Shown: positions 13,077 through 21,349 of the stretch, in pieces | Position numbering within the stretch: position 1 is the first letter of the stretch | How the letters are laid out: each line of letters starts with the position of its first letter | Source: an uncultured Actinomycetota bacterium | GTDB taxonomy: Bacteria; Actinomycetota; Actinomycetes; Mycobacteriales; Mycobacteriaceae | Direction of reading: 5' to 3' | Length of the DNA: 64,000 nucleotides | Assembly (NCBI GenBank): GCA_963805675.1 | Contig: CAWDVY010000035.1 | Coordinates: forward strand, 78,332 to 142,331 | Translations under genes and position numbers: made by a program | The notes under the pieces: generated by a model | Seen by the model: only the letters and a program-made list of their open reading frames with translations | What the model was told of the DNA's origin: nothing | The model's database searches: none

Positions 13077-13507
13077 GCGCACCTGCTCGGCGCCGAGGCC
13101 TGTGCACCTGGAATACCCGAATCAGGTCGTCTTCGAATTGCTGACCGTGGAGTGAACGACGGCGACCGCATCGGCATTGTAGGACGAAACGGGGACGGCA
13201 AATCCATGCCTGCTGGGTTTGCTCACCGGTGCGGTGTGCCCGGATTTCGGCCGCGCGTCACCCGCTGGAGCGGGTTGTGGGTAGGCGCGCTGAGCCGGAC
13301 CAATACTCTCGACTCGCGCCATACCGTCGGCTGGACGCTGGTCGGCGATCAATCCGAACGCCAGTGGGCGTCCAACCCGCACATCCGCGGCCTGGTTGAT
13401 GGGCTAGTATCCGACATCGGTTGCGATACAACGGTTGCCACGTTATTCGGCCGCCAACGACGAAGGGTCCAGCTGGTCGGCGACCGGGATTATGATCGCG
13501 CTGGACG
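13077..13507 (+). pseudogene. Decayed 5' fragment of an ABC-F gene (paralog of 18078-19856)
   Basis: Aligns by eye with ~18081-18520 (gcgcacctgctcggcgccgagg..., gacggcgaccgcatcggc..., atcgcgctggacg); start codon lost, several indels. Confidence 0.85.
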
Positions 13508-13726
13508 CCATCGATCACCGGCAGCCCCGGCGTCGGTGGACCCGAACGCTCCTGCCCGGCGGAACCGGATCCCACAGCAAACACGGGCGTGGACTCCGGC
13601 CCGGTCACCGTATGCCCATCACCAACCGCCCGGCTCGCGAGCCTCCGCCTCCGTGGCCCGACAAGCGGGCATCACTTCCGTAGGGGCCCTGCGGGAGGGG
13701 CGCCCGAAGCTGCTGCGACTCGCGAT

Positions 13727-14917
13727 TCAGAACGCGCTTGAGAAGTCTCCGACGAGGTTGGGTAGGAGGTCGATAGGCAGCAGTGAGGTGATGTTGGCCG
13801 GGTCCAGGAATGTGCTGAGGCTGCCGCCATCGAAAATTGAGCTGAGGTCCGACAACACCGTGCTGGGGTTCAGCACTGAGGTGATGTCCGTCAGCATTGT
13901 GCCGGGGTCCACAGCAGCCGCGCTGCTCGCGGCCGGCGTGATCGCTTGCGCGATGTCTTCAGCCAAACCCAGCAGCGCCCCAATTGGCCCGTCCTGCGCG
14001 GAAAGAAGGCCAAAGAGGCTATCTGAGGGCACCCCGTTGAGGAAGGCGTCCGCGAGTGTGGTCGGGGCAAGGGCAAAGTTTTGCAAGATCGCCGCGAAGT
14101 TCCCGGTGTCCACCGCGTTGACAAGGTTATTGCCGATACCCCCGATCGCCCATACGACGGAAGCTGCTGGCTCGATAAGACCGAGAATCGGAAGCAAGCT
14201 GTCTCCGAGCCCCGTGCTGACAGCAGCCGACAGATTCGCGAAGGGCGTCTCGACAGCGGTTTCGAGCGCGCTTATGAGAGGAAAAAGCTGGAGGAGCGGG
14301 TCAAGGAAGAGGTAGTCGATGACAAGGTTAAACAGCCCGTCTTGGATGTCGCCGGAACTGAAATCCATCCACACACTTTGGAGATTCCCTGGCAGTTCCG
14401 TGGTCACGTACGAAACCAGGTTCTGGACACTCTCTTGGGCCGCCGCGCCGATAGCGGTGAAGCTAGCCACCTGGTTGTCGAGGATCTGGGTGAGTATCGG
14501 GAACGGAGCCGCGAGGAACTATTGTGCGAGCCCCTGAAGGCTAGCCACGGTATCCGTGAAAAGCTGCACCGGCCCGACGAGGGTGTAAGGGGTGGGATCC
14601 GCGAGGTTGAACAGTCCGGCGAAGGGGTCGAACAGATCGCCGAGGTTCAGTGACCCGCCCGAGCCCGACAGCTCGGCGAGGGGATTCAGGAGGTCACCAA
14701 TGGGGCCCGACGCTCCTCCGGCTCCACTCACGGCATTTTCTAATCCACCAACAATGCCCGGTACATCGTCGAGGAGGCCTTCGGCGGCGGACAGCTGTAC
14801 TACGGGCACCCGGATGTCGGCTAGCGGTGGTGCCACCGGCGTGACGGCGATGAGGCTGGCGCCTGCAACAGCGACACCGACGGTGACGTAACGACGCGCG
14901 GCTAGCTCGATACCCAT
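13727..14917 (-). pseudogene. GjpA-like mycobacterial outer-envelope/porin-type protein with one in-frame TAG at 14519-14521
   Basis: N-terminus MGIELAARRYVTVGVAVAGASLIAVTPVAPP; ORFs 14519-15103 and 13727-14470 share a frame, separated by CAA-TAG-TTC (LAQ*FLAAPFPIL). Confidence 0.65.
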
Positions 14918-15112
14918 CTCTTGTCCGGTCTTGTCTGGCTGGACCACTTTGACGACCTTCACGACGGAATGCATCGGATCATGCCTGAGAGTAACGTGAG
15001 AAACAACACATACGCCCAATAAATATCCCGGTGCTGCCAACGAAACGGCCTGGCCCATGTTTACCGGTTCGTTTGCGCGCCATGGGTGAGGCAGCCGGCG
15101 CAATGTCCGCCG

Positions 15113-19856: not shown

Positions 19857-19867
19857 CTCTCACTTCA

Positions 19868-19925
19868 TCGAATGTGAAGTTGTCGCGAATTTTCGCGGGA
19901 ATCCTCGCAACAGTTTCACATTCGA
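19868..19925. repeat. REP-like palindrome / candidate bidirectional terminator between convergent ABC-F and argH
   Basis: TCGAATGTGAA ... TTCACATTCGA (11-bp perfect arms). Confidence 0.6.
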
Positions 19926-21349
19926 AGAGGGGGCTGATAGTCACCCAACTGTTGCCGGAGCCGTTGGGCGGTAGCACGGACTGAGTCAAGTTGCAGGGCA
20001 ACCTGGGCGGGCGCGGTGCCGCCGCGCGCATCGCGTGACGACACCGAACCCTCGATGGTGAGCACTTCTCGAACCTGGGGGGTCAGGGCGCTGCTGACGG
20101 CGGCCAACTGGTCGTCGGTCAGCTCCTCGAGCCCGACGCCGAGCTTTTCGGCGACCTGGACGGCCGCGCCTGCGGCCTCATGGGCATCTCGGAACGGAAC
20201 ACCCTCACGCACAAGCCACTCGGCGATATCAGTGGCGAGGGTGTAGCCGGCCGGGGCCAGCGCCGCCATCCGCTCGACATTGAACGTCAGGCTGCTCACC
20301 AGTCCGGCCATCGCCGGCAGCAGCAGCTCCAGCTGCGCCACCGAGTCGAACACCGGCTCTTTGTCCTCCTGCAAGTCTCGGTTGTAGGCCAGCGGCTGCG
20401 CCTTCAGCGTCGCCAGCAGCCCGGCCAGGTTTCCGATCAGCCGACCGGACTTGCCGCGAGCCAGTTCGGCGATGTCGGGGTTCTTCTTCTGCGGCATGAT
20501 CGAGCTGCCCGTCGACCACGAATCGTGCAAGGTGACGTACCCGAATTCGGTTGAGCTCCAGATGATGATGTCCTCGGCAAGCCGCGACATGTCAACGCCG
20601 ATCATCGCGAAGACGAACGCCGCCTCCGCGGCGAAATCCCTTGACGCAGTTGCGTCGATGGAGTTGTCAGCGGCTGCTGCGAAACCGAGCTGTTCGGCGA
20701 TCGCGTCGGGATCCAGCCCCAGCGAAGAACCGGCCAGTGCCCCAGAACCGTAGGGCGACAACGCGGTGCGTGCATCAAGGTCGACGATCCGGTCGACGTC
20801 GCGCAGCAGCGGGTGCGCATGTGCGAGTAGATGGTGGGCCAGCAGGATCGGCTGAGCGGACTGCAAGTGCGTCTTGCCCGGCATGATGGCGCTCGGGTGA
20901 GCGGCGGCCTGAGCAACCAGTGCGCCGACCAGATCCAACGCGCCCGCGGCCACGCGCCGAAGTGCGTCCCGCAACCACATCCGAAACAGCGTGGTCACCT
21001 GGTCATTTCGCGAGCGGCCGGCCCGCAGTCGACCGCCCAGGTCAGGCCCGACTCGGTCGATCAGCCCGCGCTCCAACGCGGCGTGCACGTCCTCGTCGGT
21101 GACCAGCGGTCCGAAACTCCCGTCGGCGACATCCTCGGCCAGGCTATCCAGACCGGCCAGCAGTCCGTCGCGCTGATCGTCGGTGAGCAATCCGGCGTTG
21201 AAAAGTACCCGAGCGTGCGCCTTGGACGCCGTGACGTCATAGGGCGCCAGCACCCAGTCGAAGTGGGTGGACCTGCTGAGTGCGACCAGCGCATCGGACG
21301 GGCCGTCGGCGAACCGTCCACCCCACAGCGATCCTTCGTTGGTGCTCAC
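19916..21349 (-). CDS. argH: Argininosuccinate lyase
   Basis: [13 protein letters not shown]; [12 protein letters not shown] signature. Confidence 0.97.

What the first reader, a model, noticed from the sequence alone, without database searches (positions are those of the whole stretch)
13077..21349. Ghost of a second, independently evolved argH/ABC-F locus: possible xenologous replacement or captured foreign segment
Seen: three decayed pieces (ABC-F 5' at 13077-13507, argH 3' at 15113-15345, argH internal at 17835-17976) repeat the order of the intact argH/ABC-F pair next door, with unrelated cargo between them. In 39 aligned argH codons I count by hand 10 synonymous and 7 non-synonymous codon differences. 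That excess of silent change suggests long separate evolution under selection, not a recent duplication. The remnants carry [20 protein letters not shown] and VNDG...QW...LVSDI, which match my recollection of M. tuberculosis-type proteins better than the intact copies ([24 protein letters not shown]...EW...LVADI). The ABC-F remnant also sits in the native position next to the Rv1683-like gene. Inference: recombination between mycobacterial lineages at argH left one copy to decay.
Basis: partly seen in the sequence, partly recalled or inferred. Interest (0 to 1): 0.62.

Follow-up and report, generated by a model that had tools for sequence, protein, structure and literature searches.

The report
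Decayed foreign ABC-F/argH copy beside native pair
An uncultured Mycobacterium carries, next to its working ABC-F and argH genes, the decayed remains of a second ABC-F/argH segment that most likely came from another mycobacterial lineage; it is a well-documented example of known processes, not a new kind of element.

Summary
The three remnants are real. ABC-F' 5' lies at 13058-13507 and carries 6 indels. argH' 3' lies at about 15114-15339. argH' internal lies at 17828-18004. They repeat the order of the intact ABC-F (18078-19856) and argH (19916-21349), with other genes and gene wrecks between them.

dN/dS against the intact copies is 0.14-0.22, with dS 0.7-1.3.

ML placement rejects the remnants as sister to the intact copies (dlnL 35.8, AU p about 1e-7). 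They attach below the stem of the clade formed by this genome and its five nearest sampled relatives. At clade-diagnostic sites they behave like non-members.

The intact ABC-F/argH pair groups with the same relatives as fadD, argG, argJ and pheT, so it is the vertically inherited one. The remnants are the captured foreign copy, not a displaced native one.

No relative carries a ghost. Same-species contigs from several independent assemblies do, which makes an assembly chimera unlikely.

The most likely mechanism is integration of about 2.7 kb of orthologous donor DNA into the fadD/ABC-F intergenic region. One junction lies in homology and one is illegitimate (argH codon about 214 joined to the spacer). 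Decay and cargo insertions followed. This is an ordinary kind of event that happens to be well preserved here.

The parts
10007..12976 (-). Rv1683-like bifunctional hydrolase/acyl-CoA synthetase ('fadD' in my analyses); native left flank
   Evidence: NCBIfam NF005898 scores 1863.8 bits and Pfam finds Abhydrolase_1 plus AMP-binding. It is 91-92% aa identical to the G200-group relatives. Diagnostic sites are of the native type from nt 83 of the gene onward.
12977..13076 (.). Left intergenic spacer with a 'short' architecture; zone that holds the left junction of the captured segment
   Evidence: It lacks the 35-nt and 56-110-nt segments present in all five nearest relatives. Block 12988-13044 aligns with the spacer of the G200-group and looks closest to it by eye. 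From about 20 nt upstream of ABC-F' every informative site is non-native.
13058..13507 (+). ABC-F' 5' remnant (N-terminal ATP-binding domain up to Walker B); pseudogene of foreign origin
   Evidence: 74.5% nt and 55% aa identity to the intact copy, with 6 indel events. Sister-to-intact placement is rejected for this piece alone (dlnL 23, AU p 0.004). Omega is 0.215 and dS 0.70.
13727..14917 (-). Cargo 1: envelope-protein-like gene with one in-frame TAG (14516-14518); it replaces the 3' three quarters of ABC-F'
   Evidence: The frame stays open across a single stop. There is only a weak N-terminal match to porin GjpA NF033942 (E 8e-4, 18.7 bits against a cutoff of 100). No Pfam family matches. 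It is absent from the orthologous loci of relatives.
15114..15339 (-). argH' 3' remnant (ASL_C2 region); it may continue to about 15051 in another frame
   Evidence: 67.6% nt and 53% aa identity to the intact copy. It is 74-77% identical to many other mycobacteria, closer than to its own intact copy. Sister-to-intact placement is rejected (dlnL 12.9, AU p 0.013).
15346..15596 (-). Remnant of one unit of a 207-nt (69-aa) repeat gene resembling, from my recollection, the helicase-associated domain; frameshifted
   Evidence: It matches 207-nt tandem arrays in G133, G267, G292 and G200 at 68-80%. Translation shows ...[17 protein letters not shown]... and ...EEGFRRLMDYVERHGDARVP... in different frames.
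15611..16276 (-). Cargo 2a: TetR-family regulator
   Evidence: Pfam finds TetR_N plus TetR_C_41. An 89%-identical homologue lies at another locus in G008.
16576..17013 (+). Cargo 2b: hypothetical protein (138-145 aa)
   Evidence: No Pfam or NCBIfam match. It is co-linear with the TetR and FHA genes in G008 (85%) and G275 (94%).
17010..17459 (+). Cargo 2c: extra GarA/OdhI-like FHA protein
   Evidence: Pfam FHA matches and NCBIfam OdhI NF041660 scores 192.5 bits against a cutoff of 200. Paralogues lie at C25:784328 (76.5% aa) and C26:138685 (70% aa) in the same genome.
17828..18004 (-). argH' internal remnant (real codons about 214-274); its 5'-ward end abuts the spacer of the intact ABC-F
   Evidence: 80.7% nt and 64% aa identity to the intact copy. 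Nucleotide homology to argH runs 17834-17991, with a 2-nt insertion and a 6-nt deletion. It is phylogenetically uninformative on its own.
17992..18024 (.). Right, illegitimate junction: truncated argH' joined to spacer sequence about 55-85 nt upstream of the intact ABC-F start
   Evidence: argH homology ends at about 17991-18004. Homology between the two ABC-F upstream regions begins at 13020/18024. Clear alignment with the spacers of the nearest relatives begins at 18058-18065.
18078..19856 (+). Intact, vertically inherited ABC-F ATPase
   Evidence: Two ABC_tran domains plus ABC_tran_Xtn and ABC_tran_CTD. It is 88-91% aa identical to the G200 group and nests within that group in its tree.
19916..21349 (-). 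Intact, vertically inherited argH (argininosuccinate lyase)
   Evidence: Pfam finds Lyase_1 plus ASL_C2. It is sister to the G200 group with 100% support, as are argG+argJ+pheT.

Best explanation
The remnants are what is left of about 2.7 kb of orthologous DNA from a different mycobacterial lineage. That segment ran from the donor's spacer, through ABC-F, to the 3' 55% of argH. The donor lineage branches outside the clade formed by this species and its five nearest sampled relatives.

The segment was integrated into the spacer between the Rv1683-like gene and the resident ABC-F. The left junction lies in sequence that donor and recipient share (the 5' end of fadD or the spacer). The right junction is illegitimate, joining donor argH at codon about 214 to the resident spacer. 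This is the layout expected from homology-facilitated illegitimate recombination. Integration of a circularised fragment would give the same layout.

The resident ABC-F/argH pair stayed intact and kept its function. The truncated argH' was dead on arrival, and the redundant ABC-F' later decayed. Two replacement-type insertions then overwrote parts of the ghost. One brought an envelope-protein-like gene. The other brought a TetR / hypothetical / GarA-like module together with a fragment of a 207-nt repeat gene.

Shown: the fragments, their decay, the purifying-selection signature, their placement outside the clade, the vertical history of the intact pair, the absence of a ghost in relatives, and its presence in same-species assemblies. 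Inferred: the mechanism of integration, the order of events and the original size of the segment.
For: (1) Three fragments stand in the order and orientation of the intact pair.

(2) The pattern of divergence is that of two functional genes. Against the intact copies, omega is 0.215 for ABC-F' and 0.144 for argH', with dS 0.70 and 1.26. Identity is about 85% at codon positions 1+2 but about 64% at position 3, which is the same pattern as between distant orthologues. A truncated argH cannot have been under selection in this genome.

(3) In the ML analysis, attaching the remnants to the branch of the intact copy, or to the branch of its sister group, costs 35.8 lnL units (AU p about 1e-7). ABC-F' alone (dlnL 23.1, p 0.004) and argH' 3' alone (dlnL 12.9, p 0.013) each reject it.

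(4) At 42 clade-diagnostic sites the remnants read 24 'rest', 13 'clade' and 5 other. Non-members G150, G193, G133 and G013 read 24-28 'rest' to 12-15 'clade'. Members read 35-39 'clade' to 3-9 'rest'. The remnants share only 2 of 18 changes private to the intact copy.

(5) Intact ABC-F, argH, fadD, argG, argJ and pheT all have the same nearest relatives.

(6) The 13 relatives whose loci I examined in detail show fadD, ABC-F, a gap of 0-3.8 kb, argH and argG, with no ghost.

(7) The left spacer changes character. Block 12988-13044 aligns with the nearest relatives' spacer, and from about -20 of ABC-F' every informative site is non-native. fadD is native from nt 83.

(8) Independent same-species assemblies (4 NCBI MAG or metagenome assemblies and 5 Logan assemblies of SRA runs) contain 5256-15793 at 99.2-99.7% identity. 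Three contain all or part of 15824-27455 at 99.3-99.9%. One compared contig has only two mismatches inside the ghost.
Against: No donor was found. Among 300 genomes drawn evenly from the genus, the best matches are only 78% (ABC-F'), 77% (argH' 3') and 86% (argH' internal). 'Foreign' therefore rests on tree position, not on a matching source.

The attachment point is the base of the stem of the clade. A very old duplication in the clade's ancestor would attach at the same point.

The internal argH' piece is too short to place, and at relaxed diagnostic sites it looks clade-like (8 to 1). The three pieces may therefore not share one origin.

Estimates of the neutral decay differ: about 0.04-0.06 substitutions per site from the excess dN, against about 0.18-0.20 from the ML branch lengths.

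Continuity across 15793-15824 inside the TetR gene is seen only in this assembly. The continuity is supported indirectly by an uninterrupted 882-nt homologue in G008.

The exact left junction cannot be fixed between about 12894 and 13058.
Confidence: 0.68

Rival explanations
1. Old tandem duplication. The unit (spacer, ABC-F, argH) was duplicated in the common ancestor of this species and its five nearest relatives. Both copies stayed functional for a long time. The sister lineage then lost one copy cleanly, and this lineage let the left copy decay and be truncated.
For: The layout is formally that of a tandem duplication: both units begin about 54 nt upstream of ABC-F (13020 and 18024) and there is one novel joint. 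The remnants attach exactly at the base of the clade's stem. Only one loss is needed, because the five relatives form one group. The branch-length analysis allows a sizeable neutral phase.
Against: It requires two initially identical tandem copies of both genes to persist under purifying selection for more than half of the time since the node (omega 0.11-0.22). Tandem duplicates are unstable (established knowledge). As found, argH' is truncated at the joint, so an extra deletion that happened to end at the spacer must be assumed. None of the 13 relatives examined in detail retains any trace. The left spacer changes from native-like to non-native about 20 nt upstream of ABC-F', inside the supposed duplicated unit.
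Confidence: 0.13
2. Xenologous replacement, as the reader leaned to. The remnants are the original resident genes, and the intact ABC-F/argH pair is the incoming copy that took over.
For: ABC-F' occupies the position next to the Rv1683-like gene that ABC-F holds in all relatives. The remnants keep genus-consensus residues where the intact copy is derived. A native copy of the clade's ancestor would also attach at the base of the stem.
Against: Intact ABC-F and argH have the same nearest relatives (88-91% aa identical for ABC-F) and the same next-nearest group (G150, G234, G193) as fadD, pheT, argG and argJ. There is therefore no discordance to explain. The five relatives carry the same type of ABC-F/argH in the same place with no ghost. 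The segment immediately upstream of ABC-F' and ABC-F' itself are non-native, while the last about 13-20 nt upstream of the intact ABC-F and the gene itself match the relatives.
Confidence: 0.08
3. Recent tandem duplication in this lineage, followed by neutral decay of the left copy.
For: The tandem-like layout.
Against: Sister placement is rejected with AU p about 1e-7. Omega is 0.14-0.22, not the 0.5 or more expected if one copy were neutral from the start. The remnants share 2 of 18 changes private to the intact copy. The argH' 3' piece is closer to most other species than to its own intact copy.
Confidence: 0.02
4. Assembly artefact: a chimeric join of two strains or species in a metagenome-assembled genome.
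For: The genome is a draft with 4.45% estimated contamination. Other assemblies break at 15793/15824 inside the TetR gene. Reads could not be inspected.
Against: The pieces are frameshifted and truncated fragments interleaved with other genes, not intact genes of a second strain. The left part, including fadD, ABC-F' and argH' 3', recurs in at least 9 independent assemblies. The right part, including argH' internal and the intact pair, recurs in at least 2. The TetR gene spanning the break is one continuous ORF with both Pfam domains and has an uninterrupted 882-nt homologue in G008. No repeat lies at the break.
Confidence: 0.02

Closest known systems
Homology-facilitated illegitimate recombination (described for Acinetobacter and Streptococcus pneumoniae transformation; cited from my own knowledge, de Vries & Wackernagel 2002 and Prudhomme et al. 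2002)
   Same: Foreign DNA is anchored on one side in sequence shared with the recipient and joined on the other side without homology. Here the shared side is the fadD 5' end or the spacer, and the other side joins argH codon about 214 to the spacer. The result is an insertion of extra DNA next to the anchor.
   Different: The process is inferred here from an old, decayed scar. It was not observed, and mycobacteria are not known as naturally transformable. The inserted DNA is the orthologue of the adjacent resident genes, so the product mimics a tandem duplication. Microhomology at the illegitimate joint can no longer be read.
Xenologous gene displacement in situ / mosaic operons (concept of Omelchenko, Koonin and colleagues, 2003; from my own knowledge; the term is used in PMC9425974 and PMC1274311)
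   Same: A foreign orthologue lands beside the resident gene, giving a transient two-copy stage after which one copy is lost.
   Different: Here the resident copies won and the incoming copy decayed, so no displacement took place. This is the 'failed' outcome, which leaves a ghost that is rarely preserved.
Distributive conjugal transfer and mosaic genomes in mycobacteria (Gray et al. 2013 for M. smegmatis; M. canettii mosaics; from my own knowledge; the mycoplasma counterpart PMC6819513 mentions both)
   Same: It provides a route by which chromosomal segments of a related mycobacterium can enter and recombine at orthologous loci.
   Different: That process normally replaces segments through two homologous crossovers. 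Here the segment was added, with one illegitimate joint. No conjugation genes or donor were identified.
Ordinary tandem-duplication pseudogenes
   Same: Head-to-tail layout, one truncated copy, and decay by frameshifts.
   Different: The copies are not each other's closest relatives, and most of their divergence is synonymous.

Membership tests
Paralogous pseudogene from within-genome tandem duplication | The decayed copy is the closest relative (sister) of the intact copy | tested here: not met
   Attachment to the intact copy's branch costs dlnL 35.8, AU p about 1e-7. ABC-F' and argH' 3' each reject it on their own.
Paralogous pseudogene from within-genome tandem duplication | Divergence between the copies is largely neutral (omega about 0.5-1) when one copy is dead from the start | tested here: not met
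   Omega is 0.144 for the truncated argH' and 0.215 for ABC-F'.
Paralogous pseudogene from within-genome tandem duplication | Head-to-tail units with one novel joint | tested here: met
   Units start at 13020 and 18024, and the joint between argH' and the spacer lies at 17992-18024.
Horizontally acquired (xenologous) segment | Its phylogenetic position conflicts with that of the host's flanking and core genes | tested here: met
   The remnants fall outside the clade (OWN, G200, G019, G267, G277, G275) that fadD, argG, argJ, pheT and the intact ABC-F and argH all support.
Horizontally acquired (xenologous) segment | An identifiable donor lineage or a near-identical source | tested here: not met
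   The best matches in 300 genomes of the genus are 78%, 77% and 86%.
Horizontally acquired (xenologous) segment | Absent from close relatives at the same locus | tested here: met
   No remnants in the 13 relatives' loci examined in detail. Present in same-species assemblies.
Homology-facilitated illegitimate recombination product | One junction within donor/recipient homology | tested here: inconclusive
   The switch from native-like to non-native lies between fadD nt 83 and about -20 of ABC-F', in conserved sequence. The exact point cannot be resolved.
Homology-facilitated illegitimate recombination product | The other junction is illegitimate, usually with microhomology | tested here: inconclusive
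   argH' codon about 214 abuts spacer sequence at 17992-18024. The joint is clearly non-homologous, but microhomology is unreadable after decay.
Xenologous gene displacement in situ | The resident gene is lost or decayed and the foreign orthologue is retained | tested here: not met
   The retained pair is the vertically inherited one.
ABC-F ATPase (intact gene 18078-19856) | Two ABC ATPase domains joined by a linker, with no membrane domain | tested here: met
   Pfam finds ABC_tran twice, ABC_tran_Xtn and ABC_tran_CTD. The best NCBIfam matches are EttA and the ribosomal-protection-like ABC-F family, both below their equivalog cutoffs.
Argininosuccinate lyase (intact gene 19916-21349) | Lyase_1 plus the ASL C-terminal domain, in an arg operon context | tested here: met
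   Pfam finds Lyase_1 and ASL_C2. argG lies directly upstream, and the argR, argF, argD, argB and argJ homologues follow in the same-species contigs.

The most novel reading that the evidence does not exclude
The locus is a preserved intermediate of an attempted in-situ orthologous replacement between mycobacterial species. Donor chromosomal DNA, perhaps delivered by conjugal chromosomal transfer, was added beside the resident genes through one homologous and one illegitimate joint, and the resident copies outlasted the invader. If such scars prove common around this spacer, they could be used to measure how often inter-species chromosomal transfer fails. The same junction also holds a P450 gene, a 20-kb insertion or other genes in different mycobacteria.
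Probability: 0.5. Interest if true: 0.45.

Novelty: new member of a known kind. Interest (0 to 1): 0.35.

Why it matters
The locus gives a concrete, datable scar of DNA exchange between environmental mycobacterial lineages at a housekeeping locus. Here the incoming orthologue lost, an outcome that is normally erased and therefore seldom seen.

It shows that a tandem-looking duplicate can be a xenologue. This matters for how paralogues and pseudogenes are scored in genome surveys.

It also flags an annotation error. The public gene call for the intact ABC-F, at 664 aa, starts inside the antisense of the argH' remnant. The real start is most likely 18078.

It does not reveal a new mechanism or function.

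Tried and rejected
A partitioned IQ-TREE run with 1000 ultrafast bootstraps on 45 taxa exceeded the time limit. I replaced it with FastTree on all taxa and IQ-TREE on 30 taxa.

I replaced it with branch lengths per codon position and counts at diagnostic sites.

I collected relatives through the genome search and the fetch from genomes instead.

An exact look-up of the full TetR protein found no other contig spanning the 15793/15824 break.

The promoter and terminator scan gave nothing usable for the two spacers.

Strict synapomorphy criteria left too few sites (3 stem sites). I used relaxed criteria with held-out controls.

I considered Campbell-type integration of a circularised fragment against a linear insertion anchored on one side. 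The informative sites in the roughly 50 nt upstream of both ABC-F copies are too few to choose.

The literature searches returned only general papers.
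Full report
ANATOMY

The window lies in a draft genome of a GC-rich Mycobacterium with 36 contigs.

From left to right the region holds:
- An Rv1683-like hydrolase/acyl-CoA synthetase at 10007-12976 (-).
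- A 100-nt spacer.
- An ABC-F 5' fragment at 13058-13507 (+).
- An envelope-protein-like gene with one in-frame TAG at 13727-14917 (-).
- An argH 3' fragment at about 15114-15339 (-).
- A frameshifted unit of a 207-nt repeat gene at 15346-15596 (-).
- A TetR gene at 15611-16276 (-).
- A hypothetical gene at 16576-17013 (+).
- A GarA/OdhI-like FHA gene at 17010-17459 (+).
- An internal argH fragment at 17828-18004 (-).
- The intact ABC-F at 18078-19856 (+), the intact argH at 19916-21349 (-) and argG at 21354-22580 (-). The called genes in a same-species contig continue with homologues of argR, argF, argD, argB, argJ and argC, and pheT (28457-30976) and pheS follow in the ORF list.

Identity to the intact copies is 55% aa / 74.5% nt, 53% / 67.6% and 64% / 80.7%.

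All three pieces are dead. ABC-F' carries six indel events in 450 nt and stops at Walker B. The internal argH' piece has a 2-nt insertion and a 6-nt deletion. Codons of about 275-374 of argH' are missing, and about 2.5 kb of other DNA stands in their place.

The unit shared by the two copies begins about 54 nt upstream of the ABC-F start (13020 and 18024) and ends in argH at codon about 214. The layout is therefore formally that of a tandem duplication with one novel joint at 17992-18024.

NOT A RECENT DUPLICATE

Nei-Gojobori estimates against the intact copies are as follows:

| Piece | omega | dS | dN |
|---|---|---|---|
| ABC-F' | 0.215 | 0.70 | 0.15 |
| argH' (both pieces) | 0.144 | 1.26 | 0.18 |

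Identity is about 85% at codon positions 1+2 and about 64% at position 3, the same pattern as between the intact gene and distant orthologues. The truncated argH' cannot have been selected in this genome. Most of this divergence must therefore have arisen while it was a working gene elsewhere.

I collected the orthologous loci of 40 genomes of the genus and added five mycobacterial loci. I then placed the remnants on a codon alignment.
- The all-taxon FastTree and the 30-taxon ML tree both put them at the base of the stem leading to the clade (this genome + G200, G019, G267, G277, G275). That point is an unresolved node shared with the G150/G234/G193 group.
- Testing all 56 attachment points, the branch of the intact copy is worse by 35.8 lnL units (AU p about 1e-7).
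- ABC-F' alone (23.1, p 0.004) and argH' 3' alone (12.9, p 0.013) reject it independently.
- The 135-nt internal piece is uninformative.

The alignment of the remnants was made against the intact copy, which biases towards a sister relation, so the test is conservative.

At 42 sites that separate the clade from the rest, the remnants read 24 'rest', 13 'clade' and 5 other. Held-out non-members read 24-28 'rest' to 12-15 'clade'. Held-out members read 35-39 'clade' to 3-9 'rest'. Random decay cannot produce this pattern, because it would rarely restore the specific alternative base.

WHICH COPY IS NATIVE

The intact ABC-F, the intact argH, fadD, argG, argJ and pheT all have the same nearest relatives. 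Amino-acid identities to them are 88-91%, 89-90%, 91-92%, 93-95%, 86-90% and 87-90% respectively.

Trees of argH, of argG+argJ and of argG+argJ+pheT each make this genome sister to that group with 100% support. In the ABC-F tree it nests within the group. The intact pair is therefore the vertically inherited one, and the remnants are the intruder.

JUNCTIONS AND MECHANISM

fadD is of the native type from nt 83 onward. The left spacer lacks two segments that all five nearest relatives have. Its block 12988-13044 aligns with the nearest relatives' spacer. From about 20 nt upstream of ABC-F' every informative site is non-native, whereas the corresponding sites of the right copy are native.

The left junction thus lies in sequence shared by donor and recipient. 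The right junction, argH codon about 214 joined to the spacer, is illegitimate. This is the signature of homology-facilitated illegitimate recombination. Integration of a circularised fragment would give the same signature, and I cannot separate the two.

The neutral decay since inactivation is about 0.04-0.06 substitutions per site by the excess dN, or up to about 0.2 by the ML branch lengths. Either value fits within this species' own terminal branch, but the event is old.

ABSENCE IN RELATIVES, PRESENCE IN THE SPECIES

The 13 relatives whose loci I examined in detail show fadD, ABC-F, a gap of 0-3.8 kb, argH and argG, with no ghost. Four of the five nearest have a cytochrome P450-like gene in the gap. 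Many others have about 20 kb there. The junction is therefore a recurrent insertion site.

Same-species contigs from 4 NCBI MAG or metagenome assemblies and 5 Logan assemblies cover all or part of 5256-15793. Three cover all or part of 15824-27455, at 99.3-99.9% identity. In the one contig compared position by position, only two mismatches fall within the ghost.

The one gap, at 15793-15824 inside the TetR gene, is bridged only by this assembly. The TetR ORF is continuous and has an uninterrupted homologue in G008.

RIVALS

An old duplication in the clade's ancestor would attach at the same node and needs only one loss. It also requires two initially identical tandem copies to survive under selection for a long time, plus an extra truncating deletion. 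I give it about 0.13.

Replacement with the intact pair as the invader gets about 0.08, because nothing about the intact pair is discordant. A recent duplication and an assembly chimera get about 0.02 each.

VERDICT

This is a real and well-supported scar of an inter-lineage transfer in which the incoming orthologous segment was added and then lost the competition with the resident genes. It is an instructive example of known processes, not a new kind of element.

Noticed in passing
window 17862-18077: The longest ORF of the intact ABC-F (664 aa) starts 72 codons upstream of the likely GTG start at 18078. It runs through the spacer and the antisense of the argH' remnant. Gene callers used this long form in the same-species MAGs, so the public annotation probably carries a spurious N-terminal extension.
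   Followed up: partly
window 15346-15596 (-); L169 2452-3509: A frameshifted single unit of a 207-nt (69-aa) repeat (...[11 protein letters not shown]...L..YVERHGDARVP...) that forms tandem arrays in G133, G267, G292 and G200. From my recollection it resembles the helicase-associated domain; I ran no Pfam test on it. It is one more gene wreck inside the ghost.
   Followed up: partly
window 13727-14917 (-): An envelope-protein-like gene whose frame stays open across a single in-frame TAG at 14516-14518. It has only a weak N-terminal match to porin GjpA (18.7 bits against a cutoff of 100) and no Pfam family. The same split (151 aa and 247 aa ORFs) is called in most same-species assemblies.
   Followed up: partly
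window 15589-17460; G008:C11:373323-375009; G275:C3:1070323-1071363: The TetR / hypothetical / GarA-like module sits at other loci in two relatives, at 85-89% (G008) and 94% (G275, at a contig end). The 94% exceeds the 88-91% nucleotide identity seen over the ABC-F 5' region. The module carries no mobility genes. In G008 it lies beside sequence syntenic with this genome's own garA region (C25, about 771-788 kb).
   Followed up: partly
L091 4646-6004, L093 4685-6007, L094 10219-11793, L092 13901-17734: Four of the five nearest relatives carry a cytochrome P450-like gene (about 435 aa) between ABC-F and argH, and G275 adds a large membrane protein of 792 aa. I did not run these ORFs against any family library. 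This genome and G200 have the two genes back to back, and many other mycobacteria have about 20 kb there. The ABC-F/argH junction is a recurrent insertion or deletion site.
   Followed up: partly
window 5582-10081: 60 of the 65 differences between a same-species contig (L156) and the window fall in this 4.5-kb stretch, which holds the efflux ABC and TetR genes. Only 5 fall in the remaining 6 kb. This suggests a local recombination tract or a hypervariable region between strains.
   Followed up: no
window 15793-15824: Two same-species MAG assemblies each end one contig at 15793 and a third assembly does too; one of the two MAGs starts another contig at 15824, both inside the TetR gene. No repeat lies there. 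The cause may be low coverage or a strain variant, and is unknown.
   Followed up: partly
L101 about 2406-2780 (G013 spacer between fadD and ABC-F): The spacer in G013 is expanded to about 370 nt by several tandem copies of a roughly 53-nt unit (…CCGCCGCACCCGGCTCCACCGCGCTTGCGATCGCCGCTAGCTCTGACGGCGGCGAC…), a MIRU-like array.
   Followed up: no
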